A DNA stretch of 38,825 nucleotides from a virus: the UHGV virus genome UHGV-0212475; one strand, given 5' to 3'. Within the stretch, counting starts at the first letter, position 1, and each line of letters opens with the position of its first letter. A program made the translations under genes and the position numbers. This document shows positions 3,684 through 31,661 of this stretch, piece after piece. Below the pieces are notes generated by a model that saw nothing but the letters and a program-made list of their open reading frames with translations, searched no databases and had not been told where the DNA came from.

Positions 3684-4007
3684 TTGGAGGAATTAAAAAT
3701 GACAAACTACGAAAAAGAATTATTCACTAAAATCTTAACAGGTAATATTAAATATGAAATTGCAGGTAAAGAAAACGAAATGTTAGATGGATATATTACA
3801 AGAGATGAATTTAACGAATATAAAGGAATGCTAAACCTATTAAACGTAGCTAATAAAATTTTTAATGAAGCATACACAACTGGTTATTTCAAATCAAGTA
3901 AAACAGATACAGTTATTGAAGCTAAACACGTGAAATTTTTAGGTAATGAAGAACTTGAAATTATCAAAACAACAGCAGTTTTACATGCAACTGTAGCTTT
4001 TAAATAA
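3684..4007 (+). CDS. hypothetical protein (107 aa)
   Basis: TTGGAGGAATTAAAA RBS. Confidence 0.55.
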   Translation: MEELKMTNYEKELFTKILTGNIKYEIAGKENEMLDGYITRDEFNEYKGMLNLLNVANKIFNEAYTTGYFKSSKTDTVIEAKHVKFLGNEELEIIKTTAVLHATVAFK

Positions 4008-4018
4008 AATTAATAAAA

Positions 4019-4051
4019 GGGGTTGACAAGTTCAACCCCAAGTGATATACT
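4019..4051 (+). promoter_or_regulatory. early promoter TTGACA-17-TATACT with its -35 inside an 8-bp-stem hairpin (GGGGTTGAcaagtTCAACCCC)
   Basis: -35 at 4023-4028, -10 at 4046-4051; identical hairpin copy at 8803-8823. Confidence 0.6.
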
Positions 4052-4080
4052 TAGTTCATAAATTAATAGGGGGAATTAGA

Positions 4081-4443
4081 ATGTTAGTATTAAAAAAGAA
4101 ATATGATAAGCTGGTACATGATTACAATTTCTTAGTAGACATTAAAGAGGATTGGAAAGACTCTTACAATCAAATGCAGTCAAACAATGTTAAGTTAGAA
4201 CAACGTATTGGCAGACTTGAAAAAGAACTTGACAAAGCAGATGATGAAGTATTGGACCTAAAACTTGAACGTGACAGGTACAAAGAAGCACATAAACAAG
4301 TACGTCAAAAATATATTGATAAAGATGTTGAACTACAAATTGTTGACCGTATTGTTTTACAGTATGAACAACGAATTAACTTATTAGAGGAGGAAATAGA
4401 AGAACTTAAAAACTATATGGAGGAATTAAAAGAATATGAATAA
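4081..4443 (+). CDS. hypothetical coiled-coil protein (120 aa)
   Basis: internal ATG at 4081 with GGGGGAATTAGA RBS; heptad-rich, Glu/Lys-rich sequence. Confidence 0.5.
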   Translation: MLVLKKKYDKLVHDYNFLVDIKEDWKDSYNQMQSNNVKLEQRIGRLEKELDKADDEVLDLKLERDRYKEAHKQVRQKYIDKDVELQIVDRIVLQYEQRINLLEEEIEELKNYMEELKEYE

Positions 4444-4526
4444 AAACGATTGTATGAAACCACGATACGTTGAGCGTGACGAACCAAGGCAATACAAATG
4501 TATTACAATAAATCATAAAGAAAGTA

Positions 4527-4555
4527 TTGACAATCAAAAACAACCATGGTAATAT
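4527..4555 (+). promoter_or_regulatory. early promoter TTGACA-17-TGgTAATAT
   Basis: -35 at 4527-4532; extended -10 at 4547-4555. Confidence 0.5.
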
Positions 4556-4585
4556 AAATTCATAGAGATAAGGGAGGAAGCAACA

Positions 4586-10821: not shown

Positions 10822-12109
10822 GATTGGAAAAATTGAATTATTACCAACGCAAATTGAAGGTATTAAAAAATGGAATACGCACCCTTACGATTTATCAGAT
10901 GCTGGAACAGGTAAGACATTCACTGCATTAGGTGCCTACCTGCAATCTGGATGCAGTAAGTTATTAGTTATCTGTTTAGCACCTAAGGTTGCAGACTTTG
11001 CAGAAGATGGTGCATTGATGGATATTAAGATTACACCACTAAATAAAGGAACAAAGAAAAATAAAGAGTTATTAGCTGAATCAAATAAAGTAGCAATCAG
11101 TTTTGAAAGTGTTTGGCGTATCACTGAATTATTGAAGTGGGTTGATAAAAATACATTCATTATCATTGACGAAGCGCACAAAGTGGGTGTAACCAGTTCC
11201 AAGGTTACAAAGTTTGTAATGAAGTTGACAAAGAAAACCAAGTATGTTAGACTATTAACAGCAACACCAGTTAGTAATGGAAAACTTGAAAATTATTATC
11301 CACAATTGTACATGCTTAATGTATTCCGCAAACCTAAAAAAGAATTTGAAGAACTATTTGTTATTAAGCAAATGCGTCAAATGGGTTCAATGCGATTCAT
11401 GCAAATTGTTGGGTATCAAAACGAGCATTTGTTAAATGACATGATTAATAGCGTTGCGGTGCGTTTTAAGCGTGATAAAGATTACTTCCCAGAAGATTAT
11501 GTATTAAAGACTAAAAAGCCAGCTATGTACGCTAAATTGAAAAAGAATCGCATGTATAAAGCTGATAACGGTGAAGTGATTGAATTAGATAATAGTAGTA
11601 AACTATTTAATGCAATGCGTTGTGTGTCACATGGTTTCTTATTAGGAATCAATAAACAGGTAAGTAAAGAACCATTTGAACGATTGAACCAGATTCTTGA
11701 AACGCACAACGACGAACGAATAGTTATATTTTATAATTACAATGTGGAACTTGAAATGTTGAAACAAGTATTAGACAAGTTAAAACGTCCATATAGTCAA
11801 TATAATGGCGCTAGCAAAGACTTAAAAGCATTTAAAGGTAAATACAACGCTGTTGTGTTAGCACACTACAAATCAGCTTCTACAGGCATTAATGACTTTG
11901 TTATTGCAAATGTGACAATTTACAATTCAATGCCTTTAGAATCAATCAACTATGAACAATCTAAGGCACGCACAGACCGTTATGGTCAAACCAAGAAACC
12001 ACTTTATTATCACATTGTACCTGAAACACCAACTGAAAAAAAGATTTTTGAAACAGTAACAAAGGGTAAAGACTTTACTAATGAAGATATTGAAAACATT
12101 TTAAAATAA
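10814..12109 (+). CDS. SNF2-family helicase (SF2)
   Basis: 431 aa from the ATG at 10814 (GGAGGTGTGGT RBS); motifs I DAGTGKT, II DEAH, III TAT, VI QSKARTDRYGQ. Confidence 0.8.
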   Translation: MTKIGKIELLPTQIEGIKKWNTHPYDLSDAGTGKTFTALGAYLQSGCSKLLVICLAPKVADFAEDGALMDIKITPLNKGTKKNKELLAESNKVAISFESVWRITELLKWVDKNTFIIIDEAHKVGVTSSKVTKFVMKLTKKTKYVRLLTATPVSNGKLENYYPQLYMLNVFRKPKKEFEELFVIKQMRQMGSMRFMQIVGYQNEHLLNDMINSVAVRFKRDKDYFPEDYVLKTKKPAMYAKLKKNRMYKADNGEVIELDNSSKLFNAMRCVSHGFLLGINKQVSKEPFERLNQILETHNDERIVIFYNYNVELEMLKQVLDKLKRPYSQYNGASKDLKAFKGKYNAVVLAHYKSASTGINDFVIANVTIYNSMPLESINYEQSKARTDRYGQTKKPLYYHIVPETPTEKKIFETVTKGKDFTNEDIENILK

Positions 12110-12112
12110 GTA

Positions 12113-12143
12113 TTGACAACTACTATATCACATGATATAGTAG
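12113..12143 (+). promoter_or_regulatory. early promoter TTGACA-17-TATAGT with a palindromic operator (CTACTATAT-N6-ATATAGTAG), third copy
   Basis: -35 at 12113-12118, -10 at 12136-12141; palindrome 12120-12143. Confidence 0.65.
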
Positions 12144-12170
12144 ATACATAATGTAAAGGGAGGATAAATA

Positions 12171-12914
12171 ATGGAACTATTAAGACTTAGAAAAAACGGT
12201 AAAGCACCATACAAAGAAGGTGCTTTCAATGGTGAAGATAAAGCAGAAGTGAAGAAGTGGGTTGCAGAAGGTGGCAACTATGGTATTCTAACTGGTAAAA
12301 TTTCAGGTATTGCAGTGATTGATATTGACACGCATAATGGTGTTAGTGGTGCTGATAACCTCAAAGAGTTTTGCGAAAAGTATGATATTAAGTTACCAGA
12401 TACTAAAACAGTTATGACACCAAGCGGTGGTTTACACATGTATTATATTCTGCCAGCAAAATATGATGATGTACAATTCATTCAAAACCACAAGGAACTT
12501 GAAGGTGTTGACTTCCAAACACATGGACGGTACGTTGTTGGGTGGGGTTCACAGATTGAAGGTGTAAAGTATGAAGTAATTGACAATTCACCAATTACAT
12601 ACCTACCATCAAAATGGTTTGATATTTTCACAGATAAAACAATTCAAAAGCAAAACAAAAAACGTGAACGCAAATGGACTGCAAACCTATTAGGTGATAT
12701 TATCGCTGGTAGTGATGAAGGAGGACGAAACAACTGGATAACGCAAATGATTGGCAAATTGTTTGCTACAGGCTTAGAACATGAAGAAGTGTGGGTATGG
12801 TCACAATATGTAAACCAAATTGGTTGTAATCCACCACTTGATGGAGTAGAGTTAAAACGTACCTATGATTCAGTTAAAAAACGAGAAGAACGGAGAATGG
12901 CAAAAGATGAATAA
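12171..12914 (+). CDS. DNA primase: Prim-Pol N-terminal domain + PriCT-1-like C-terminus
   Basis: 247 aa; IDIDTHNG (DxD) and TPSGGLHMYY motifs; AAGGGAGGATAAATA RBS. Confidence 0.8.
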   Translation: MELLRLRKNGKAPYKEGAFNGEDKAEVKKWVAEGGNYGILTGKISGIAVIDIDTHNGVSGADNLKEFCEKYDIKLPDTKTVMTPSGGLHMYYILPAKYDDVQFIQNHKELEGVDFQTHGRYVVGWGSQIEGVKYEVIDNSPITYLPSKWFDIFTDKTIQKQNKKRERKWTANLLGDIIAGSDEGGRNNWITQMIGKLFATGLEHEEVWVWSQYVNQIGCNPPLDGVELKRTYDSVKKREERRMAKDE

Positions 12915-13113
12915 CGCTCATATGTTTAGAAAATTGTTCCCAAATGGTTGGCTTATTGATGTAAAGCACAACCAAAATGGGTTTGGTGATATGTATAGTA
13001 CAAATTATAACTATTCAGTAATGTTGCAACATGTACAAAGTGGGTTTGTTAGTTTTGAAAATATTGAAACGGCGCAAGAAGTTTTTAAACTTATCGCAAA
13101 ATATGCAAAATAA
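12907..13113 (+). CDS. hypothetical protein (68 aa; start uncertain)
   Basis: ATG at 12907 with a weak GGAGA RBS. Confidence 0.3.
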   Translation: MNNAHMFRKLFPNGWLIDVKHNQNGFGDMYSTNYNYSVMLQHVQSGFVSFENIETAQEVFKLIAKYAK

Positions 13114-20921: not shown

Positions 20922-20936
20922 AATTTTCTAATCAAT
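20913..20936 (+). promoter_or_regulatory. perfect palindrome ATTGATTAGAA-tt-TTCTAATCAAT overlapping the polB stop codon
   Basis: 11-bp arms, no U-tract; terminator-like hairpin or protein-binding site. Confidence 0.4.
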
Positions 20937-21014
20937 ATCTTATTTAAATCTAAATACAAATAAGCGCTGATAATGTATACTATTAGTATAAGATAAAGAG
21001 AGGAAGTAATAGAA

Positions 21015-21185
21015 ATGAAAAAAATACTTATCAGTGCTTATTATTTAACAGACAGACACCCTGATGGAGGAATTGTAAAAGTAGTTAATATGAATAATGA
21101 AACTGCCACTGTTTACTATGTATTTGATAGAAGTAAAAAACAGTTCACAGTTAAAGTATCAGATTTATATTTTGATGAAGATTAA
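21015..21185 (+). CDS. hypothetical small protein (56 aa)
   Basis: AGAGAGGAAGTAATAGAA RBS; preceded by TGtATACT extended -10 (20973-20981). Confidence 0.4.
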   Translation: MKKILISAYYLTDRHPDGGIVKVVNMNNETATVYYVFDRSKKQFTVKVSDLYFDED

Positions 21186-21199
21186 TAGGAGGAATTTAA

Positions 21200-21427
21200 A
21201 TGATTACAGTATATACTAAAAACAATTGCATGCCTTGCAAAATGACAAAACGTAAATTACAAGAGTTAGGAGTTAGCTATAAAGAAATTAATGTAGATGA
21301 AGATTTGAGTGCATTAGAATATTTAATGGAATGTGGATTTCGTTCTTTACCTGTTGTGTTCAATAATGATGGTCCTATTGTAATTGGTGGATATGCACCA
21401 AACATCTTAGAAACCATTGTTTCATAG
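21200..21427 (+). CDS. nrdH: NrdH-like glutaredoxin
   Basis: 75 aa; CMPC redox motif near the N-terminus; TAGGAGGAATTTAA RBS. Confidence 0.75.
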   Translation: MITVYTKNNCMPCKMTKRKLQELGVSYKEINVDEDLSALEYLMECGFRSLPVVFNNDGPIVIGGYAPNILETIVS

Positions 21428-21431
21428 GAGC

Positions 21432-21516
21432 ATTCTAAGCACGTTTCAGATTCAAAGTAAGGTGATTATACATTAAAACGCAAATAAAGACACCCAATAT
21501 AGGGTGTCTTTTTGTT
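21432..21516. repeat. about 65-bp direct repeat copy A plus bidirectional intrinsic terminator (AAAGACACCC-aatata-GGGTGTCTTT); right boundary of the lysis cassette
   Basis: ATTCTAAGCacGTTTCAGATTcAAAGTAAGGTGATTATacATTAAAAcGCAAATAAAgACACC is about 90% identical to 23204-23267; U-tracts on both strands. Confidence 0.8.
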
Positions 21517-22614
21517 TTATACTAATGTTCCCCACGTGTTGTTAGGGTCGCCGTCATCTGGTCCAATTGGTAAGTAAATACGTGTACCATTAGTGTCTGT
21601 TCCACCAATCCACACATAACCATCACCAACTGTTATTTCATCATACTTGAATACTGCACCTTGTTTCCATGTTCCATATACTGGCGCATATACGCTTGGT
21701 CGTCCACTGCGTAAAATAATAGCGCCAACACCAATTGTAAACTGATTGACTGGTTTACTTGGTTTTGGTGGGAACTTAGTGTTAAGGTCCTCTAAGTCGC
21801 CAGCGTTAGCATATGTTACAAATTTACCACTGTTTTCAATCTTATAAGGATTGACTGCACCTTGTTTCACTTCTGTAATTGTACCAACTTGGGTCCAAAG
21901 ACTTGCACCAGCTACGAATGGTACCACTGGTCCATTGTATGATTTGTGACCGTTATAAATATAAACATTTTGACCTTTTTTGAATGTCTTTGGTTTGCTT
22001 GGTGTTGGTTTTACTGATTCACCAGATACCCCATTGGCTAAGTCTTTAGCTAGTTGCGCTTTACTAATTCCCATTTCTGCTAAGTAACCATATGGGTCTG
22101 TGTGGTCACCCCATACATAATCTGATACCCATTTGTGAGAGATAACACCTTTTTCCCAAACAGAAGAACCTTGGTCAAGTGTCATAGGAATACCAAACTT
22201 TTTACCCATGTCCCTTGTATAATCAATATATGCTTTATAGTTCTTTTTGAACAACTCTTTATCATGTGTGTGTTGTAACTCAATTTGAATAGGTGCGTAT
22301 GGGTTTGCATTACCAGCACCCCATGAAATATTGCCCTCTGGTGCAATCTTATAAACAATACCACCGTCACCAATGATAGCTGTTGTATGTGCATTAAACC
22401 AGTTATTTTTCATGTACGTTGCTTCATTTCGTCCTGTGGCACGTTCATTGGCAGTTTCGTGTAAGATAATCTTATTAGGTACTGCAACCTGTCCTGAACC
22501 TTCCCAAGGGCTTAAATTGAACTCGTTATTAACTTCATATGCGTTAGCTGTTTGCATTCCAGCAAACAAACCAATGGTTGCTAATGCACCAAATAAAATA
22601 CCTTTTAATTTCAT
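21517..22614 (-). CDS. endolysin: Sec signal peptide + N-acetylmuramoyl-L-alanine amidase (amidase_2/PGRP) + 2x SH3b
   Basis: 365 aa; N-terminal MKLKGILFGALATIGLFAGMQTANA (signal peptide-like, predicted cleavage after ANA); amidase_2-like HETANERATG...ELQHTH; C-terminal SH3b-like repeats; AGGAGGA RBS. Confidence 0.85.
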   Translation of the reverse strand: MKLKGILFGALATIGLFAGMQTANAYEVNNEFNLSPWEGSGQVAVPNKIILHETANERATGRNEATYMKNNWFNAHTTAIIGDGGIVYKIAPEGNISWGAGNANPYAPIQIELQHTHDKELFKKNYKAYIDYTRDMGKKFGIPMTLDQGSSVWEKGVISHKWVSDYVWGDHTDPYGYLAEMGISKAQLAKDLANGVSGESVKPTPSKPKTFKKGQNVYIYNGHKSYNGPVVPFVAGASLWTQVGTITEVKQGAVNPYKIENSGKFVTYANAGDLEDLNTKFPPKPSKPVNQFTIGVGAIILRSGRPSVYAPVYGTWKQGAVFKYDEITVGDGYVWIGGTDTNGTRIYLPIGPDDGDPNNTWGTLV

Positions 22615-22616
22615 AC

Positions 22617-22850
22617 TTATTTGTCCTCCTTATTGTCTTTAATACCTTTTGTTGTTGGGTCTATAACTACCCCTAAAATACTTAATACAACGAATACCGC
22701 ATTAACAACATCAATTAGTTGTTGGCTCAAACCAGTTAGGTTTGATAAGTCTAATCCAAAAATGTTTCCCACAACTTGAATCAGAACAATTACTGCTGGA
22801 ATTAAAGCAATCCAGAACGCTTTGTTTTTGATACGTGTTTTCCAATCCAT
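22617..22850 (-). CDS. holin (phiLC3/LL-H-like, 2 TM)
   Basis: 78 aa from the internal ATG at 22850 with AAGGAGAG RBS; MDWKTRIKNKAFWIALIPAVIVL...; charged C-terminus. Confidence 0.75.
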   Translation of the reverse strand: MDWKTRIKNKAFWIALIPAVIVLIQVVGNIFGLDLSNLTGLSQQLIDVVNAVFVVLSILGVVIDPTTKGIKDNKEDK

Positions 22851-22864
22851 TTTTAACACTCTCC

Positions 22865-23110
22865 TTATAATATAGTTATAATAGCACCAATAACAGCAAC
22901 AATAATTGCCCCTGATACTGTGCGTGTTAGCCAAGTTAAACGGTCATTTATACTAGCAATGTCTTTCTCATTTTGAATTGAACGGTGATGGGTTTCACTC
23001 AATAAATTATTGTTTGCCTTTAATTCATTTTTCAAGTCTGGAATACCTTCCAAGTTTGATTCAATTCTAGCTAGTTGTACTTTTATTTCCATGAAGTCCT
23101 TATCTTCCAT
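22865..23110 (-). CDS. XhlA-like protein (coiled coil + C-terminal TM; lysis accessory)
   Basis: 81 aa; GGGAGATG RBS; amphipathic N-terminus with C-terminal TM GAIIVAVIGAIITIL. Confidence 0.55.
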   Translation of the reverse strand: MEDKDFMEIKVQLARIESNLEGIPDLKNELKANNNLLSETHHRSIQNEKDIASINDRLTWLTRTVSGAIIVAVIGAIITIL

Positions 23111-23203
23111 GCCTACATCTCCCTATCTTATTATAATCACCGCCTTTCAGCTACTATTATAGTATAGCATTTAAATAAGGGAAATAGTGTGCTTCACAGG
23201 ATG

Positions 23204-23285
23204 ATTCTAAGCGTTTTTCAGATTAAAAGTAAGGTGATTATGTATTAAAAAGCAAATAAAAAACACCCCAAAAAGAGGTGTTTTT
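23204..23285. repeat. about 65-bp direct repeat copy B plus intrinsic terminator (AAAAACACC-ccaaaaaga-GGTGTTTTT) 3' of tal; left boundary of the lysis cassette
   Basis: homologous to 21432-21494. Confidence 0.8.
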
Positions 23286-23288
23286 ACC

Positions 23289-25604
23289 TTATTTGAACAC
23301 TTTTGTTATTTGACAAGCTGGTACACTTGATATGAAGCTGTACTTATTTGCTTCAACTGAAATACGTATACCAACAAACTGGTCTTTTTTAAGCTCTAAT
23401 ACAAATGAACCTGTAGAAATCCATCTGAAACTTAGTGAGCTACCACCATTATTACCAATTGCATGTAAATACCCAGCACCACCATTTGTTATCAATCCCC
23501 CTATATCATCTGCAACAATCATTTCTGTATATACATATCGTGATTGTGTGCTTGTTCCATCTCCTTGATGTCGCAGTGTAACATCAAATTTTAGTATGCA
23601 ATCCTCTTTTACCTGCATTGCATCACGATTAGGATTAAACCATATTAATTTATTATGTTCAGCTTCTGATGTGTTGAAGTCTGTACCACTAAATGGTCCA
23701 ATTGGTAATAGGGTTCTTGTTGGTGATTTATCTAAACTTGCACCAGCACTATAAAAGGCGCTAAATTGCTTTTTATTATTTACTGTGATACCTTCTGCTT
23801 CTAACTTAGTGTTGTTAGTTAGAACACCACCTTCAATCTTTTGGATTGACATGTTACCACTACCAATTGTTGTATTGGTTTGTATGTTTTTAGTGTAGTC
23901 ATTTGTATCAATTGTCATTGAGCCATCGCTTAGTGTTGCGATGTCTTGATGTTCTACTGTTGTGCCTGTTGCTAGGTCATATGACTTTGATGTGTTTGTT
24001 AGTCTTGCGTATTGAATAAGTGTGTTTTCTTCACTTCTTAGTTTCTCTGTTCCGCCTGTTACTGTTACAAATGTGTCATTATCTTGGAATATTTTACCAT
24101 CACCAATTGTTGTAGTCCCAACACGTCTTGCAGTTCCACCAATGATAGCTTCTGTTTTATTCCATGTGTTGATAAATTCAGAACCATTGATAATTGAACC
24201 ATTGATGTTTACTGCGTTTAATGTTTCAATGTTAAGCACAGATTGGTCAATTGTTTGGTCTTGCCATTGACCACCTTTATACACCTTGTATGCACTAACC
24301 TTCTGTTCTGGCTCTGGTTCTGCTAATGGTGCTACACTTCTAAATAGTGTAGTACGTTGTACTGATTCTTGAACCCACCAGATATCATTTTCTTTTGGCA
24401 ACTCTGGTTCGTCTGGTTGTACAAAAACACGTGGTACACTATTAAATTTCGCTGTTGTTTCATTGTCAATTTTAATTTGAATATCTCGCAACTGTTCAGC
24501 AATTCCAGATTGTAAACGTACAAAATTAGATAGAACTGCTTCACAAGTGTTTGATTCATAATTAAATGTCAATTGTTGAACACGTGAGCTAAGATATAGT
24601 TTTTCGTTTTCGTCAACTAGTTCAACGGTATCACCTACCTGCAAAATGTCAGGAATGTTTGCAATGTCTACAATGTAATTCGTTACTGGTTGACTGTATT
24701 TTTTAAGATGTGAAACCACGTTATTTACTAGCGTTGTTTTGTTAGTTGTTTCATATGTCTTATATTGTACAAAATAATGTGAATTGTTGTTTTCACGTGA
24801 CCATTGCTTGATGTTCTGCGTATCACGTATAATACCATCACTCTTGTTTAATACAAAGCGTCCTTCTGGGTCCGTCCATGTAAAGCCTTTTAAATTTATA
24901 GGTGTATCCTTACCTTCTTCTGTTCCACCTGTTGCATAGATAGCATTCACAAGTTCGTAAATATCTTCTTCAACTACGATTGAGTGGATATCTCTATTCA
25001 CATACATTCTGTGAAAATCTGTTGTACCACGTTTTTTCTTGATGTCAATGTAGCGTTGTTTTAATTCGTTACCTACAAAGTCAAAACTAAATTCTAGTTC
25101 TGCATTATCAAATTGAGTTGCTACTGATTGAATGCGTTCTAATGCTGTTGCTTCACCTTCCCATTCCAGTTTTCGTGTAAGGTTTGGTATTTCATTTACA
25201 CCAATCTTAAAACCACTGTCAGAAGTGAATTTATTAATGTAATACGCAATGTTGTAAGCCTTGTCTGCTTTGTAGTCACTTACTGTTTCATTTAATAAGT
25301 CCAGTCCAGCATCTTCACATTCTAATGTTCTAACCTGTGTGAGTGGATTGTGTGTTGCTTTTAATATTGTCATCCACTCATATTTACCATTCAAGTCAAT
25401 ATACAGTACATAGTTACCAACTTTGAAAAAGTCTTTTGCTTGGTCTGTTGTTGATGGTGTGAAGCTGATTTCCATTGTCATTCTACGTGAAGATGTTTCA
25501 AGAGTAGAAACATCTTCCGCAGAAATTACTTTAAATGGTGTATCACCGTTTGTGCTTGTTACTGTTTTTAATTGAAAAGTTCTGTCTGTGATATAAAAGT
25601 CCAT
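23289..25604 (-). CDS. tail-associated lysin / baseplate hub (Tal) with extended C-terminal receptor-binding region
   Basis: 771 aa; N-terminus MDFYITDRTFQLK... resembles Tal/gp27-like (prophage-tail) proteins; GGAGGAAT RBS; immediately follows dit. Confidence 0.75.
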   Translation of the reverse strand: MDFYITDRTFQLKTVTSTNGDTPFKVISAEDVSTLETSSRRMTMEISFTPSTTDQAKDFFKVGNYVLYIDLNGKYEWMTILKATHNPLTQVRTLECEDAGLDLLNETVSDYKADKAYNIAYYINKFTSDSGFKIGVNEIPNLTRKLEWEGEATALERIQSVATQFDNAELEFSFDFVGNELKQRYIDIKKKRGTTDFHRMYVNRDIHSIVVEEDIYELVNAIYATGGTEEGKDTPINLKGFTWTDPEGRFVLNKSDGIIRDTQNIKQWSRENNNSHYFVQYKTYETTNKTTLVNNVVSHLKKYSQPVTNYIVDIANIPDILQVGDTVELVDENEKLYLSSRVQQLTFNYESNTCEAVLSNFVRLQSGIAEQLRDIQIKIDNETTAKFNSVPRVFVQPDEPELPKENDIWWVQESVQRTTLFRSVAPLAEPEPEQKVSAYKVYKGGQWQDQTIDQSVLNIETLNAVNINGSIINGSEFINTWNKTEAIIGGTARRVGTTTIGDGKIFQDNDTFVTVTGGTEKLRSEENTLIQYARLTNTSKSYDLATGTTVEHQDIATLSDGSMTIDTNDYTKNIQTNTTIGSGNMSIQKIEGGVLTNNTKLEAEGITVNNKKQFSAFYSAGASLDKSPTRTLLPIGPFSGTDFNTSEAEHNKLIWFNPNRDAMQVKEDCILKFDVTLRHQGDGTSTQSRYVYTEMIVADDIGGLITNGGAGYLHAIGNNGGSSLSFRWISTGSFVLELKKDQFVGIRISVEANKYSFISSVPACQITKVFK

Positions 25605-27773: not shown

Positions 27774-30700
27774 TTAAACAATACCTAAGTCACGTGAACG
27801 ATTACGTTCTGCGGTCTTATTTAGGTTGTTAAGTTCCTTGTTAAGCTTCTTACCGTCCAATAACACATCTGTATTTTTGGCTAAGATAGCTTGCAACAAT
27901 TCATTCTGTTGTTGCATTAAAGCAATGACTGTTCCTAAGTCTGTTGATGTTCCTTGCTTAGGTGTGTTGCGTTCTTCCTTCACTCCTAACGCTTGTTTAG
28001 CTTGGTTAAGCAATGCCATTGCTCTTCCTCGTTTAGCTGGTTCAGTTGGAATGATAAATTCTGGATAACCATTTTCAGCAAGTTTTGCAATTTGTGGACC
28101 TTTTGCAATACCACCATTATAATAACCTCTAATGCGTCCACCAGATGGACCCCAACCAGATTTTCCATAAGGTAAGTCTTGACGCCAGTTAGTGTTGTTA
28201 AAGAATGCTAGTAATTGGTCATAACCTGAATAAATATTGCCATGTCCTTTTACCTTGTACGCGTCAAACGTTTGTGGGATATATTGAAGCAAGCCGCGTG
28301 CTGGGTTTCCGCTTGCGGTGTTGACGTCCCATACTGCTGAACTTTGAACAATCTTTTCATTACCACCTGATTCACGTTGAATCTGTGCTAAGATACCATT
28401 GATTTCACTTTCACTAGCATTTGCACCCATTTCTTTGGAAGCTTTGATGACCAATGCGCGCCAGTTGCCATCTACAGGACCGCTAACACGTTCTTCCTCT
28501 TCTTTCTTTTTGAATAATGCTTTCACTTTTTCGGCAAATGCAGTTGTAGCTTTTGTTCCTAAACCTTTTGCCATGTCTAATGCTACGTGTGTTAGACCTC
28601 CTAAGTCCATTGCACCCATAATTGCATTTCGTGCTAAGTCTAATGGATTGCCTACCCAGTCCATAATATCGCCAATGGTTTGTTTTACCTTGTTGATACC
28701 ATTACCCACAAATGACTTGGTATTGTCCCACATGTTGCGAACTCCGTCCATGAAACCAGTTCCTTTTTTATAGAATGGAATGCGTCCTTTTTGACCTAAT
28801 ACCATTGATGTTTCTTTGGCATTTAGTACTTGTGTGCCAGCTGGTGCATTCATCATAACGTTTCTACCTTTTGGAATCATTGCTTGACCGTTTGGTGCTA
28901 TTACCATTTCAGCTCCACCACCGTCATTTACTACCATAGGTCCGCCTATGTGACCATCAGTACCGCTTGCATATTGTGGTACGTCCCATTTAGGAATTTG
29001 AGGTGCGCCAAACTTTTCTAACACCCAGTTAGCACCACCAATGATACCATTTACTGGACCACCAATTGCGCTCAATACCTTATTGAAAATACCTTTAAAT
29101 GCACCAGTAACATGCTTAGCACCACCACTAATTGCACCGCCTAAACGTTCTGGCAAACCAGTAAACCAGCGTACAATAGTGTCAATACCACCACTGAATG
29201 TGTTTTTGATTCCCTTCCAAAGGGATGATATAGTTCCTGAAACATTACTTCTAAGCTCACGTGCAATGCGTGTTACATTACTAAACCAACCAGAAACAGC
29301 ACCATTTACATTTGATATACCACCTTTAAAGAAGTTTTTGACAGCGTCCCACATGCCAGAAATTGCACCTTTAAATGTTCCGCCAAAACCTTTTACACCT
29401 TTTAGAATTTTACCAAAGAATGAAATATTAATCCAGTTCCAAATAACTTGGATAGCACCCCAAACTAATTGTTTGATACCGTCCCAAATTAATTTCCAAT
29501 CACCGTTGAAAATACCTTTAAAGATTTTTGTTGCCCCTTCAATTACATTAAAGAAACCTTCAATCAAACCAACTACTGAATCAACAAAACTCATTACAAT
29601 ATCAATTGCAATTTTAAAAATTGGTGTTAATAATTCTAACCATTTTTTAATTGCATTCATTATTGCTTGTCCGTTCTCGTTCCACCACTTAGTCACCTTA
29701 TCAAAAACAGCACCCAACCTATCCCCAAGTTCTTGAAGCTTAGGCATGATGTAAGGTATTAAGTCATCTGCAATATACTTAATCACAACACCCATAATGT
29801 CGCCCGCAACCTTGAAAGATGTACCAAGATATTGCGTTAACTTTTCAAGAATTGGCTGTGCAAACTCCCACATTTTTTCCAATGCTGGTTGGACCATTGG
29901 TAGAATTTTCTTGGTAAAGTTTGTGATACCGTCTGCCATTCCACCAAACATTGGGTTCAATGAGATACCAATTTCATTTCCTAATGCTTTTAATGCTGAT
30001 TTAAAGGCGTCCATTCCAGTTGTGTTGCTCATTGCGTTGTTCATTGCGTCTTGTGCGCCTTCTACGTTATCATATGCCATTGATGTATTGTTTAATGACT
30101 TGATAACAGCCAATGAATTATCTTCACCTAATGCGGACCAGATTGTCCCAGCTTTGTTCAGTGCGTCATATTGGTTTTCCATACCTCCAAAGTCGCTAAT
30201 CATTGAACGAATGACGTCCGCTTGTGTTGCTCCGCCTTGTTGCCATTGTCTAAACAATTCTTGTGTTTGACCGCTGAACATACCTATGTTGTCCTCGAAA
30301 CGACCATCTGTTAAAGAAATAGCCATTTCTTTAATTAAGTCATTGACTTTGTCTAAGTTGTATGCTCCATTATCTAAACCGCTTTGTAACATGTCAAATG
30401 TCTGTTCTGCTGTGAAACCAGCTTGACCAAAAATCTGTGAATACTCCGCCATGTTATCGCCTAGTTCGTCTGTTTGGTCAAGTCCTAACTGTGCGCCACG
30501 TGCCATCAAGTCCCAAGCGTGGTCTGCGTCAATACCAAAGTTAGTCATCATTTTACCAATACCACGAATAGTCTCGTTTACGTCTGCCCCTGTATTTTTA
30601 GAAAATGCAATTGCATTACGTGTCATGCGTTGTAGCATATCATCGTCCATGCCGTTGGCACCCATTACATTTTGTACACGTATCATTGCGTCTGCCACTT

Positions 30701-31661
30701 CGTTGATGTCGTCTGAATAACCTTCAGCAACTAATTGGTTAGCTAATCTTGAAACAGCTTGGGCGCTCTCTGCGTCCCAGTCAAAGGCTCCTTTGAATTT
30801 ATCAACCGCTTCAATACCAGCATTAATATTTTCAACAACTTCTGAAACAGCGTCACTAATCATATCAATTGCTTTAGTAGCTACCGCCATACCAACACCA
30901 GCAACCAAACCTTGTAGCCCTTTACTTGCTAGTCCTAAACCTTCACTAGTTTCACCGCTTGACTTACCTAATTCTTGCATTCCTTTAGATACTGAATCTA
31001 GTTCACCATCTGTATTATCAAGTGACTTTTTAAACTCTTGTAATTCTTTTTCAGCCTTGCTAACTTCTGTTGAATTTTTACCAAACTTTTGCGTTAACTG
31101 TTGGATTGCGTTTTCTTGACCAGCAATAGCTTGTTTAGTTAGGTCTGATTGACGTTTTAAACCAGCTTGTTTTGTTTCCAAAGCACCCATTTTGTCGCCT
31201 GCTTTATCCATTGCATTGGCTTGTGTTTGGAAGTCTTTTGCGTTATCTTTAATTTCTTGACCTAGCTTATCTAAACCATTCTCAAACTTGATAACGTCAG
31301 CTGTTGTTTTTTGCAAATCTTTTTGCATTCCGTTATATTTAGCACTAGCATTGTTTAATTGGGTTGTTAGTGTTTTAACTTGGTTTGATTCTTCGCCATA
31401 TTTTGCAATAGCGTCTTGACGTTTCTTACTTAGTAATTCAACTTTCTTACCTTGTAAGTCCGTAGCTGTTGCCAAGTCTTTTTCTTTTTGTTGCAATTTC
31501 TCAATACTTTGTCCTGATTTATCAAACACTGATAAATTGGCTTTCATTGCTGATTCTTGCTGTTTAATTGACTTGTTTAATTTGTCTAATGTATTAATGG
31601 TCTGGTCTACGCCATCAACACCAATACCAAACTTCATATTGCCAATAACTTTGTCTGCCAT
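27774..31661 (-). CDS. tail tape measure protein with a C-terminal lytic transglycosylase (SLT) domain
   Basis: 1295 aa; long coiled-coil N-terminus; Gly/Phe-rich K..F.G repeats; ILAQIQRESGGN...GLLQYIPQTF SLT signature; AAGGAGAG RBS. Confidence 0.9.
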   Translation of the reverse strand: MADKVIGNMKFGIGVDGVDQTINTLDKLNKSIKQQESAMKANLSVFDKSGQSIEKLQQKEKDLATATDLQGKKVELLSKKRQDAIAKYGEESNQVKTLTTQLNNASAKYNGMQKDLQKTTADVIKFENGLDKLGQEIKDNAKDFQTQANAMDKAGDKMGALETKQAGLKRQSDLTKQAIAGQENAIQQLTQKFGKNSTEVSKAEKELQEFKKSLDNTDGELDSVSKGMQELGKSSGETSEGLGLASKGLQGLVAGVGMAVATKAIDMISDAVSEVVENINAGIEAVDKFKGAFDWDAESAQAVSRLANQLVAEGYSDDINEVADAMIRVQNVMGANGMDDDMLQRMTRNAIAFSKNTGADVNETIRGIGKMMTNFGIDADHAWDLMARGAQLGLDQTDELGDNMAEYSQIFGQAGFTAEQTFDMLQSGLDNGAYNLDKVNDLIKEMAISLTDGRFEDNIGMFSGQTQELFRQWQQGGATQADVIRSMISDFGGMENQYDALNKAGTIWSALGEDNSLAVIKSLNNTSMAYDNVEGAQDAMNNAMSNTTGMDAFKSALKALGNEIGISLNPMFGGMADGITNFTKKILPMVQPALEKMWEFAQPILEKLTQYLGTSFKVAGDIMGVVIKYIADDLIPYIMPKLQELGDRLGAVFDKVTKWWNENGQAIMNAIKKWLELLTPIFKIAIDIVMSFVDSVVGLIEGFFNVIEGATKIFKGIFNGDWKLIWDGIKQLVWGAIQVIWNWINISFFGKILKGVKGFGGTFKGAISGMWDAVKNFFKGGISNVNGAVSGWFSNVTRIARELRSNVSGTISSLWKGIKNTFSGGIDTIVRWFTGLPERLGGAISGGAKHVTGAFKGIFNKVLSAIGGPVNGIIGGANWVLEKFGAPQIPKWDVPQYASGTDGHIGGPMVVNDGGGAEMVIAPNGQAMIPKGRNVMMNAPAGTQVLNAKETSMVLGQKGRIPFYKKGTGFMDGVRNMWDNTKSFVGNGINKVKQTIGDIMDWVGNPLDLARNAIMGAMDLGGLTHVALDMAKGLGTKATTAFAEKVKALFKKKEEEERVSGPVDGNWRALVIKASKEMGANASESEINGILAQIQRESGGNEKIVQSSAVWDVNTASGNPARGLLQYIPQTFDAYKVKGHGNIYSGYDQLLAFFNNTNWRQDLPYGKSGWGPSGGRIRGYYNGGIAKGPQIAKLAENGYPEFIIPTEPAKRGRAMALLNQAKQALGVKEERNTPKQGTSTDLGTVIALMQQQNELLQAILAKNTDVLLDGKKLNKELNNLNKTAERNRSRDLGIV

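What the first reader, a model, noticed from the sequence alone, without database searches (positions are those of the whole stretch)
21432..23285. Lysis cassette (XhlA-like, holin, secreted endolysin) bracketed by about 65-bp direct repeats that each end in a terminator hairpin
ATTCTAAGC(A)CGTTT(TT)CAGATT(C/A)AAAGTAAGGTGATTAT(AC/GT)ATTAAAA(C/A)GCAAATAAA(G/A)ACACC occurs at 21432-21494, 3' of the endolysin gene where it also terminates the convergent nrdH transcript, and at 23204-23267, 3' of tal and 5' of the XhlA-like gene. Each copy is followed by a different-loop but similar-stem terminator. The repeats precisely delimit the 3-gene lysis module. This is either a duplication footprint from illegitimate insertion, or a recombination linker that lets lysis modules be swapped between phages. 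It also implies the lysis genes have their own late transcription unit rather than reading through from tal.
Basis: seen in the sequence. Interest (0 to 1): 0.6.

Follow-up and report, generated by a model that had tools for sequence, protein, structure and literature searches.

The report
Conserved repeats bracketing phage lysis genes
Two copies of a conserved, non-coding stretch of about 70 bases, each next to a transcription terminator, sit on either side of the three lysis genes of this Enterococcus phage and of at least one other group of Enterococcus phages, so they look like a functional border element of unknown mechanism and not an insertion scar.

Summary
The window, a near-complete Efquatrovirus-like Enterococcus phage genome, holds exactly two copies of the element, both on the + strand (about 21407-21520 and 23179-23292). 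They match at 60 of 71 bases without gaps. Each is followed by a terminator hairpin, and together they bracket XhlA, holin and endolysin.

The same pair occurs in about 100 Efquatrovirus genomes and in the IME-EFm5-like E. faecium phages. Copy-specific signatures are shared between these two groups, so the duplication is old and both copies have been kept. This rules out a recent insertion footprint.

The element never varies in length across 73 distinct copies. It has two conserved blocks (..GAGCATTCTAAGC.. and GGTGATTA) around a variable spacer. It has no consensus RNA fold, no Rfam match and no conserved ORF, and upstream genes are translated into it.

A conserved extended -10 promoter lies between copy B and xhlA, so the lysis genes probably form their own transcription unit.

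Copies occasionally exchange sequence and lie at mosaic junctions, but breakpoints also occur inside the cassette. The "module-swapping linker" idea is therefore only partly supported.

My best guess, not shown, is a DNA-level two-part protein-binding border or insulator unit. A resemblance to tracrRNA was tested and rejected.

The parts
21407..21482 (+). Element copy A. Block 1 is 21418-21442, with the near-invariant ATTCTAAG at 21432-21439. Block 2, GGTGATTA, is at 21461-21468. The element overlaps the last codons and the TAG stop (21425-21427) of nrdH.
21483..21516 (.). A-rich tract plus bidirectional intrinsic terminator (hairpin 21486-21511) between the convergent nrdH (+) and endolysin (-) genes.
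23179..23254 (+). Element copy B. Block 1 is 23190-23214, with ATTCTAAG at 23204-23211. Block 2, GGTGATTA, is at 23233-23240. The 5' part is B-type, while the middle (ATTAAAAGTAAGG) is A-like, which suggests an old A-to-B sequence exchange.
23255..23288 (-). Intrinsic terminator of tal (hairpin 23285-23259 on the - strand, followed by UUUUUUAUUUGCUUUUU). It is weaker on the + strand.
23161..23169 (-). Predicted lysis-cassette promoter with an extended -10, TGCTATACT, and no recognisable -35. It lies 17 nt downstream (on the - strand) of the end of element B. The equivalent TGnTATAAT-type motif is conserved in three other phage lineages.
   Evidence: read from sequence; not called by the two-hexamer scan
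23111..23160 (-). Leader of the lysis transcript. It holds a 5'-proximal Shine-Dalgarno-like motif, GGCGGTGATTATA (23146-23134), that is complementary to block 2 of element B, and then the true ribosome-binding site GGGAGA upstream of the xhlA ATG at 23110.
22865..23110 (-). XhlA-like holin partner (81 aa).
   Evidence: PF10779, E=1.3e-10
22617..22850 (-). Holin (77 aa).
   Evidence: PF04531, E=2.3e-23
21517..22614 (-). Exported endolysin (365 aa) with a signal-like N-terminus, Amidase_2 and SH3_5 domains.
   Evidence: PMC13517437
21200..21427 (+). NrdH/glutaredoxin-like gene, the last gene of the + strand (early/replication) arm. Its 3' end lies inside element A.
23289..25604 (-). Tal / tail-associated protein gene. 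Its 3' end is the variable sequence adjoining terminator B.

Best explanation
The two repeats are ancient paralogous copies of a functional, orientation-fixed cis element of about 65-80 bp. Together with the adjoining terminator, each copy forms a border unit on one side of the lysis cassette.

Shown:
- The pair brackets XhlA, holin and endolysin in Efquatrovirus and in IME-EFm5-like phages.
- The core is kept without a single indel.
- It has two conserved blocks, ..GAGCATTCTAAGC.. and GGTGATTA, 21 nt apart around a freely varying spacer.
- It is followed by a terminator.
- A conserved extended -10 promoter sits between copy B and xhlA.

Inferred:
- The element acts at the DNA level as a two-part binding site for a conserved phage or host protein.
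- Bound at both borders, it would insulate the lysis cassette. At B it lies at about -36 to -100 of the lysis promoter, just behind the tal terminator, so it could set when that promoter fires and block read-through from the late structural operon.
- At A it would guard the convergence point of the early and late arms.
- The two sites might cooperate by looping the 1.77-kb cassette.

Side effect: because the unit is conserved, it serves as a patch of homology where phages, and occasionally the two copies themselves, recombine. This contributes to the mosaicism of endolysin and tail-tip genes.
For: - The window holds exactly two copies, far beyond chance.
- The pair is present in about 100 Efquatrovirus records and in IME-EFm5/EFm1/Aramis-like phages about 1790 nt apart around lysin, holin and XhlA.
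- The upstream gene differs between lineages: nrdH, a nucleoside/thymidylate kinase, or DNA polymerase in phage A40. The element therefore belongs to the border and not to a particular gene.
- A-type (AAnnAAGGTGATTA) and B-type (GGTGGGTGATTAT) middles are each shared across the two phage groups, so the duplication is old and both copies are retained.
- The element is more conserved than neighbouring third codon positions: 0.943 against 0.79-0.90 among 13 close relatives.
- 45 unique copies align in 79 columns with no gaps, and 73 unique copies line up without gaps when extracted in fixed register. The pattern is conserved blocks, variable spacer, fixed length.
- RNAalifold finds no consensus structure on either strand, and Rfam finds nothing.
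- nrdH and kinase ORFs run into the element and stop at different places in it. An HNH gene inserted after block 2 separates it from its terminator in the LY0322 clade. Both facts argue against a + strand RNA-structure role and fit DNA recognition.
- The terminators are supported, and the conserved extended -10.
- Recombination at the unit: Vaquero has a tandem, A-type element at site B; L078 has an A-type 3' half and terminator at B; some A copies carry B-type variants; and the same element A plus terminator is joined to two different lysin 3' ends.
Against: - No binding protein is identified. The one annotated small regulator is far too variable to correlate with the element.
- The blocks show no dyad or direct-repeat symmetry typical of operators (by eye, from the alignments).
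- Phage A40 has only copy A, with its lysis promoter lacking the element. Phage 268 has only copy B. Neither copy is therefore indispensable, and looping cannot be general.
- EG103P3 and a 72-kb contig carry a single copy in a long non-coding region away from any lysis cassette and without an obvious terminator.
- There is no promoter next to copy A, so an 'upstream activating site' role cannot apply to both copies.
- Both blocks also look like Shine-Dalgarno sequences on the + strand, and like -10 hexamers or an anti-SD on the - strand. An RNA-level or RNA-polymerase-level reading is therefore not excluded.
- No transcript data exist for these phages.
Confidence: 0.4

Rival explanations
1. 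Recombination linker only. The conserved patches have no regulatory role of their own. They persist because they let lysis and tail-tip modules be exchanged between co-infecting phages by homologous recombination. This is the first reader's second option and resembles the PeSL cassettes of T4-type phages.
For: - Identical element A plus terminator adjoins different endolysin 3' ends.
- Terminator B adjoins about 10 different tal 3' ends.
- Homology with most relatives stops exactly at the tal stop next to terminator B.
- A/B chimeras and a tandem duplication exist.
- Mosaic Tal tips and endolysin domain shuffling are reported for the genus (PMC13517437).
- PeSLs work this way (PMC2839356).
Against: - Selection for future recombination is weak, yet blocks 1 and 2 are kept, with exact spacing, between phage groups whose lysis proteins are clearly diverged.
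- Breakpoints are just as frequent inside the cassette.
- The left edge of the commonly shared block is the nrdH start, not a repeat.
- Within-genome A-B identity is no higher than between genomes (0.760 against 0.762, p=0.63), so exchange between the two copies is rare.
- Direct repeats would also delete the essential cassette.
Confidence: 0.15
2. RNA-level element. One option is a + strand 3'-UTR or small RNA consisting of the element plus its terminator, whose two Shine-Dalgarno-like blocks would bind ribosomes or another RNA. The other is a - strand element present only in transcripts that read through the tal or lysin terminators, whose anti-SD-like AUAAUCACC would pair with the SD-like GGUGAUUAUA at the 5' end of the lysis leader and silence read-through copies.
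For: - Orientation is strictly conserved, and a terminator follows on the + strand.
- Block 2 serves as the ribosome-binding site of the inserted HNH gene in FX417.
- A 7-10-bp complementarity between block 2 and the leader motif is seen in several lineages and appears in the - strand consensus fold.
- A short helix, GUGYUU/AAGCRY, with G-U pairs that work only on the + strand can be drawn in most variants (by eye).
Against: - There is no consensus structure or covariation signal and no Rfam match.
- Copy A is translated through in several lineages.
- No + strand promoter is evident upstream of copy B (by eye; the scan finds only an antisense-oriented site about 300 nt away).
- The - strand pairing explains copy B only.
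- Complementarity between an SD-like and an anti-SD-like sequence is expected by chance.
Confidence: 0.15
3. Promoter or RNA-polymerase-interacting sequence on the - strand. The -10-like hexamers TAGAAT (block 1) and nATAAT (block 2) just behind each terminator would act as promoters or as sigma-dependent traps. This would make the unit a terminator-promoter cassette like a PeSL.
For: - GCTTAGAAT is nearly invariant, and (T/C/G)ATAATCACC is widespread.
- The order terminator, then -10-like, then gene matches PeSL architecture.
Against: - There is no conserved -35 and no correctly spaced TGn (by eye; not called).
- Block 2 reads GGTAAT in the IME-EFm5-like A copies.
- At copy A such a promoter would fire antisense into the early genes.
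- A separate, better extended -10 already lies downstream of copy B.
Confidence: 0.1
4. Duplication footprint of an illegitimate insertion of the lysis cassette, or a relic flank of a mobile HNH endonuclease gene, without function.
For: - Direct repeats flanking an insert are what an insertion would leave.
- An HNH gene sits exactly after block 2 at site A in the LY0322 clade and next to the element in a 72-kb contig.
Against: - Paralogue-specific signatures are shared across phage groups with diverged cassettes, so both copies are old and constrained.
- Single-copy lineages keep the cassette in the same place.
- The HNH proteins near the element are only 31-37% identical to each other, and most copies have no HNH nearby.
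Confidence: 0.05
5. Polar barrier at the replication terminus. Two same-orientation sites at the point where the two replication forks and the two transcription arms meet would stop forks or polymerases coming from the early arm before they run head-on into late transcription.
For: - Copy A lies at the cumulative GC-skew maximum and strand switch.
- A single bidirectional origin near a genome end is proposed for this genus (PMC13517437).
- The sites share one orientation, with a 'back-up' 1.8 kb further on.
- Recognition appears to be at the DNA level.
Against: - No Ter-binding protein is known in Enterococcus or in these phages.
- GC skew here simply follows gene orientation.
- The EG103P3 and L069 copies are not at a strand switch.
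Confidence: 0.05

Closest known systems
PeSLs (promoter-early stem-loop cassettes) of T4-type phages (Arbiol et al. 2010, PMC2839356; Comeau et al. 2014, PMC4122927)
   Same: Both are short conserved composite intergenic cassettes that include a terminator stem-loop, sit at gene or module borders and flank plastic genes. Both act as patches of homology for modular shuffling. Direct copies can recombine: PeSLs form mini-circles, and here chimeric and tandem copies are seen.
   Different: PeSLs contain a consensus sigma-70 promoter and occur about 50 times per genome in hyperplastic regions. This element has no recognisable promoter inside the repeat and occurs only twice, at the two borders of one essential cassette. 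It has a long conserved non-promoter core with fixed spacing and is conserved across phage groups. Circles were not looked for here.
Module 'boundary' or linker sequences of lambdoid and dairy phages (Susskind and Botstein's modular theory; boundary sequences described for HK97/HK022/HK620; from my own knowledge, not checked here)
   Same: Both are short conserved sequences at junctions between exchangeable modules and coincide with mosaic breakpoints.
   Different: Those are usually very short, lie at gene starts or ends, and do not form a paired direct repeat around one module. Here the breakpoints are not confined to the repeats.
Bidirectional intrinsic terminators between convergent operons
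   Same: Hairpin A, with its A-tract and U-tract, terminates both nrdH and the endolysin gene. The conserved AAAAGCAAATAAA part of the repeat is simply the A/U tract of that terminator.
   Different: The 60-nt conserved core 5' of the A-tract is not part of any terminator model, and it stays conserved while the hairpin sequences are swapped.
Paired operators that act by DNA looping (lambda OL/OR, gal, lac). This is a functional analogy only.
   Same: Two copies of one site lie 1.8 kb apart around a transcription unit, one of them next to its promoter.
   Different: No binding protein is known, the site has no dyad symmetry, and some lineages have only one copy.

Membership tests
PeSL-type terminator/promoter shuffling cassette | Repeated conserved intergenic motif at gene or module borders | tested here: met
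   Two copies lie at the cassette borders and are conserved in >100 phages.
PeSL-type terminator/promoter shuffling cassette | Contains a stem-loop that terminates upstream transcription | tested here: met
   (prediction only)
PeSL-type terminator/promoter shuffling cassette | Contains a strong sigma-70 consensus promoter within the repeat | tested here: not met
   The scan found no promoter-like site inside either copy. Only isolated -10-like hexamers are present, without a -35 or TGn. The lysis promoter lies outside the repeat.
PeSL-type terminator/promoter shuffling cassette | Many copies clustered in hyperplastic regions | tested here: not met
   The window holds exactly two copies.
PeSL-type terminator/promoter shuffling cassette | Recombination between copies creates indels, replacements or mini-circles | tested here: inconclusive
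   Chimeric A/B copies, a tandem duplication and different neighbours are seen. However, there is no excess within-genome similarity, and circles cannot be tested with these tools.
Rho-independent terminator | G+C-rich hairpin followed by a U-tract, downstream of a stop codon | tested here: met
   Hairpin A qualifies on both strands and hairpin B on the - strand. This accounts only for the 3' 35 nt of each repeat.
Known structured RNA family (Rfam) | Match to a covariance model, or a conserved secondary structure | tested here: not met
   There are no gathering-level hits in the window and only noise at E<5. RNAalifold gives an empty consensus on both strands.
tracrRNA / CRISPR-repeat mimic (RNA anti-CRISPR) | Significant similarity or complementarity to the host type II-A repeat or tracrRNA (anti-repeat, nexus, terminator) | tested here: not met
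   The best ungapped match to real tracrRNA cores is 22/33. It ranks first of 77,650 positions but only one match above the next. nhmmer finds nothing in either direction. The reverse complements of the Enterococcus repeats do not rank the element among their top matches.
Target-site duplication / insertion footprint | Recent, lineage-restricted and free to decay | tested here: not met
   The A-type and B-type versions are each conserved across two phage groups.
Site-specific recombination sites (att-like) | A cognate integrase or recombinase encoded nearby, and a core with inverted arm sites | tested here: not met
   No recombinase is annotated in a relative's genome, the genus is reported to lack integrases (PMC13517437), and the element has no inverted core.
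Protein-coding sequence | A conserved ORF in one frame | tested here: not met
   Only mini-ORFs are present, and they are lost in many copies. Upstream genes end at four different positions inside the element.
Protein-binding operator or boundary site | Specific binding by a protein | not testable with these tools
   Support is indirect only: fixed spacing, conserved blocks, no RNA structure, and tolerance of translation through the element.

The most novel reading that the evidence does not exclude
The pair is a previously unknown lysis-timing device. A conserved host or phage protein binds the two-part site at both borders of the lysis cassette. It either loops out the 1.77-kb cassette or acts as a polar roadblock to polymerases or replication forks. 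The holin and endolysin genes would then stay silent and shielded from read-through until a defined late signal. This would be a DNA-level lysis clock shared by several groups of Enterococcus siphophages.
Probability: 0.12. Interest if true: 0.75.

Novelty: new variant of a known kind. Interest (0 to 1): 0.45.

Why it matters
Efquatrovirus and related phages are among the most used candidates for therapy against Enterococcus faecalis and E. faecium, and their endolysins and tail tips are being engineered.

A conserved border unit on both sides of the lysis cassette would matter in three ways:
- It marks natural, tolerated junctions for swapping lysins or receptor-binding modules.
- It warns that direct repeats can delete or duplicate engineered inserts.
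- It points to an unstudied layer of control over lysis-gene expression: a separate promoter, insulation from the late operon, and possibly a bound factor.

I found no description of these repeats in the genome papers I could search.

Tried and rejected
1. tracrRNA or CRISPR-repeat mimic.
- I noticed CATTCTAAnCA and AAAnTAAGG at tracrRNA-like spacing.
- I confirmed the E. faecalis repeat from papers.
- I fetched real tracrRNAs from two metagenome contigs and from upstream of an Enterococcus-type cas9.
- The ungapped match of 22/33 is top-ranked in the genome but marginal. nhmmer finds nothing in either direction. Rejected.

2. Structured RNA. RNAalifold on 45 unique copies and on the whole B intergenic region finds no supported structure. 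Rfam at gathering and at E<5 finds nothing.

3. Coding. Mini-ORFs on both strands are not conserved.

4. Sigma-A promoter inside the repeat. No -35 or TGn is present on either strand (and by eye). By eye I also compared the element with SigH, ECF and SPO1-type promoters, cre, CodY, parS and dif consensus sequences recalled from memory, and found no convincing match.

5. Presence in bacteria or plasmids. A strict A-type pattern gave no hit in 185,579 genomes, and there is no plasmid hit.

6. A mis-spaced pattern wasted one viral scan. The corrected pattern gave the second phage group. Hits L054, L056 and L070 lie in coding regions and are chance matches.

7. Continuous concerted evolution. The permutation test within Efquatrovirus is negative (p=0.63). 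An earlier 'significant' result was an artefact of mixing two phage groups.

8. HNH association. The HNH genes near the element are only distantly related to each other, and the EG103P3 neighbour is not an HNH or Mom-like gene.

9. Cognate regulator. The one annotated small regulator is too variable to be informative.

10. The look-up of encoding contigs for the endolysin gave no record. No transcriptome paper exists for these phages.
Full report
WHAT THE WINDOW IS

The 38.8-kb window is a nearly complete genome of an Enterococcus siphophage of the Efquatrovirus type. Its closest record is phage MSF2, at 95% identity over the region.
- Genes on the + strand run from 1 to 21427. This is the replication/early arm, ending with DNA polymerase, a 56-aa ORF and nrdH.
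- Genes on the - strand run from 38742 down to 21517: packaging, head, tail, Tal, then XhlA, holin and endolysin.
- The two arms converge at 21428-21516, which is also the maximum of cumulative GC skew.

CHECK OF THE OBSERVATION

The repeat is real.
- The repeat finder reports one 103-nt family, 21418-21520 and 23190-23292, with a spacing of 1772.
- Ungapped identity is 60/71 over 21418-21488. Random pairs of the same length in this genome share 19.5 +/- 3.9 bases, with a maximum of 37.
- A degenerate 23-mer with up to three mismatches and a profile HMM each find exactly these two sites.
- Hairpin A (21486-21511) is a terminator on both strands, and hairpin B (23259-23285) is a good terminator on the - strand. 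Free energies are -17.3/-16.6 kcal/mol for A and -11.9/-15.6 for B, with z about -5 to -6.

THE ELEMENT IN OTHER PHAGES

Blast of either copy finds about 110 Enterococcus phage records, most with two places per record. I fetched annotated regions and IMG/VR contigs and extracted every copy with a profile HMM.

1. The conserved core is separate from the hairpin.
- The hairpin sequence differs between phages (GACACCC.., GACCTCC.., AACCCCC.., AACCACTGG..), while the core stays the same.
- The conserved AAAAGCAAATAAA stretch just before the hairpin is the A-tract/U-tract of the terminator.

2. The core never changes length.
- 45 unique copies align in 79 columns without a gap, and 73 unique copies line up without gaps when extracted in fixed register.
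- The consensus is ..GTGTnTCnnnnGAGCATTCTAAGCnnnTTTnA(13 variable)GGTGATTAnnCAtTTAAAA.. .
- Two blocks are conserved, the spacer between them is free to vary, and the distance is fixed.

3. A second phage group has the same arrangement.
- The group comprises IME-EFm5, IME-EFm1, Aramis, dArtagnan, RG1 and relatives. These are unclassified and mostly infect E. faecium.
- One copy follows the last early gene, which here is a nucleoside/thymidylate kinase whose stop codon is the TAA inside ATTCTAAG. The other copy lies between xhlA and the tail genes, about 1790 nt away.
- Their XhlA, holin and lysin are clearly diverged from those of the window (compared by eye).
- The middle part of their A copies resembles the Efquatrovirus A copies (AAnnAAGGTGATTA). 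The middle of their B copies resembles the Efquatrovirus B-type (GGTGGGTGATTAT).
- The duplication therefore predates the split of these groups, and both copies have been kept. This excludes a recent insertion footprint.
- Among 13 close relatives, element A (mean pairwise identity 0.943) is better conserved than neighbouring third codon positions (0.79-0.90).

4. Exceptions exist.
- E. cecorum phage A40 has only copy A, directly after DNA polymerase. E. hirae phage 268 has only copy B.
- EG103P3 (59.7 kb) and a 72-kb contig have one copy in an 880-nt gene-free region that is not next to lysis genes.
- In the LY0322 clade, an HNH endonuclease gene is inserted right after block 2 of copy A and uses it as its ribosome-binding site.

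WHAT THE ELEMENT IS NOT

- Known or structured RNA. Rfam gives nothing. RNAalifold gives an empty consensus on both strands. Folding the whole B intergenic region gives only a weak long-range pairing with no covariation support.
- Coding sequence. Mini-ORFs come and go, and upstream genes end at four different positions inside the element. Since ribosomes read into copy A, a + strand RNA-structure role is unlikely.
- Sigma-A promoter. The scan finds none inside the repeats. The -10-like hexamers on the - strand lack a -35 or a properly placed TG.
- Bacterial or plasmid sequence, as far as tested. A strict pattern found nothing in 185,579 bacterial genomes, and there is no plasmid hit.

THE tracrRNA IDEA

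I followed one exciting lead. The + strand reads CATTCTAAGCA ... AAAGTAAGG ... hairpin, at the spacing of a type II-A tracrRNA (anti-repeat, nexus, terminator).
- The E. faecalis repeat GTTTTAGAGTCATGTTGTTTAGAATGGTACCAAAAC was confirmed from two papers.
- Real tracrRNAs were obtained from metagenome contigs and from the region upstream of an Enterococcus-type cas9.
- Copy A is the best ungapped match in the whole genome to the tracrRNA core, but only 22/33 against 21 for the next position.
- Profile searches in both directions find nothing, even at E=50-100.
- I therefore reject this lead as not significant.

TRANSCRIPTION OF THE LYSIS GENES

- On the - strand, 17 nt after the end of element B, lies TGCTATACT (23169-23161). 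This is an extended -10 promoter without a -35.
- The equivalent position reads TGCTATAAT in the IME-EFm5 group and TGTTATACT in phage 268. A40, which lacks copy B, has TGGTATAAT directly behind its terminator.
It is a prediction, because I found no transcript data.

RECOMBINATION

- Typing eleven segments across 29 loci shows mosaicism everywhere: inside the endolysin gene (3' domain swaps), between holin and xhlA, between the leader and element B, and above all between terminator B and the tal 3' end.
- The same element A plus terminator joins two different lysin 3' ends, so the unit does serve as a crossover patch.
- Breakpoints are not confined to the repeats. The block shared with most relatives runs from the nrdH start to the tal stop.
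- Exchange between the two copies happens. Vaquero carries a tandem, fully A-type element at site B. Contig L078 has an A-type 3' half and terminator at B. The window's own B copy has an A-like middle. Some A copies carry B-type variants.
- Such exchange is episodic. Within Efquatrovirus, the A and B copies of one genome are no more alike than A and B copies from different genomes (0.760 against 0.762, p=0.63).

MOST LIKELY MECHANISM

- Shown: an ancient, selected, orientation-fixed element lies at both borders of the lysis cassette, each copy next to a terminator, with a separate promoter for the cassette.
- Inferred: the following features fit recognition of double-stranded DNA by a protein better than any RNA role. 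They are fixed spacing of two blocks, a free spacer, no RNA fold, tolerance of translation through the element, and tolerance of being separated from the terminator.
- At B the site covers about -36 to -100 of the lysis promoter. At A it marks the meeting point of the two arms.
- I therefore favour a protein-bound border or insulator unit that controls or shields lysis-gene expression, with recombination as a by-product (confidence about 0.4).
- I cannot name the protein. The single-copy lineages and the copies outside lysis regions show that this picture is incomplete.
- The rivals are a pure recombination linker, an RNA-level role, a promoter-like role on the - strand, a relic, and a terminus barrier. 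They are listed with their tests in the rival explanations.

COMPARISON WITH KNOWN SYSTEMS

- The closest described thing is the PeSL cassette of T4-type phages: conserved terminator/promoter units at gene borders that mediate modular shuffling and form mini-circles (PMC2839356, PMC4122927).
- This element shares the border position, the stem-loop and the recombination side effect.
- It fails two defining features, having no internal consensus promoter and only two copies rather than about 50. It also has a long conserved non-promoter core.
- I file it as a new variant of that general kind, not as a member.
- The Efquatrovirus literature I could search does not mention it.

VERDICT

The finding is of moderate interest: a clearly functional but mechanistically unexplained conserved element in therapeutically relevant phages.

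Noticed in passing
L005 (phage FX417) 4001-4575; also L025 (LY0322): An HNH homing-endonuclease gene is inserted exactly after block 2 of element copy A and uses the block's AAAGGTGGG as its ribosome-binding site. nrdH in this clade reads through the element to a TAA in block 2. The intact element may be the endonuclease's homing site.
   Followed up: partly
L008 (phage Vaquero) 6757-6911: There is a tandem duplication of a 77-bp unit (element plus half a terminator) at site B. Both units match the first 45 nt of the window's copy A exactly and carry a CPT1-type 3' end. They sit next to a different, shorter tail gene.
   Followed up: partly
window 22853-22882 (+): A near-consensus promoter-like site, TTAACA-18-TATAAT (11 of 12 matches), lies at the holin/xhlA junction and points antisense to xhlA. 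A + strand transcript from it would run into element B and its hairpin.
   Followed up: no
window 23133-23142 versus 23232-23241: There is a 9-10-nt inverted repeat, TATAATCACC / GGTGATTATG. An SD-like motif at the very 5' end of the predicted lysis leader is complementary to block 2 of element B. Weaker versions are seen in the other lineages. It could be an mRNA-stabilising SD-like sequence or a chance SD/anti-SD match.
   Followed up: partly
window 20922-21199: The slot between DNA polymerase and nrdH is a variable locus. It holds a 56-aa ORF here (21015-21185), a Mom-like gene in MSF2 and Vaquero, and an HNH endonuclease in several others. In LM99 and EfaCPT1 nrdH follows the polymerase directly. 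Homology with most relatives starts only at the nrdH start codon.
   Followed up: partly
window 21038-21062 versus 21501-21525: A 25-nt inverted repeat (80% complementary) links a sequence inside the 56-aa ORF (..GACAGACACCCT) to the right arm of terminator A. This is a third partial copy of the hairpin arm and is probably chance.
   Followed up: no
L004 (EG103P3) 3686-4565 and L069 4362-5240: Regions of about 880 nt, free of ORFs of 50 aa or more, in 60-72-kb Enterococcus phages carry one copy of the element. They also hold short repeated motifs (GGTAGCTATAC three times; AATGAGAAAATTTTTTC twice). In EG103P3 an 8-bp inverted repeat (TGTCAGAG/CTCTGACA) encloses the element. The function of these regions is unknown.
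   Followed up: partly
L084 38-125 (- strand): A clear tracrRNA lies upstream of an Enterococcus-type cas9: GGGACTATTCTAAACAACATAGCAAGTTAAAATAAGGTTTTAACCGTAATCAACTGTAAAGTGGCGCTGTTTCGGCGCTTTTTTT. It was recovered while testing the tracrRNA-mimic idea.
   Followed up: yes
L082 (Vaquero) 11110-12995: The tape-measure gene of this relative is annotated as joined from two pieces and split into two CDSs, and the genome carries five HNH endonuclease genes. This suggests intron or homing-endonuclease activity in the genus. The window's own tape-measure ORF (27774-31661) is intact.
   Followed up: no
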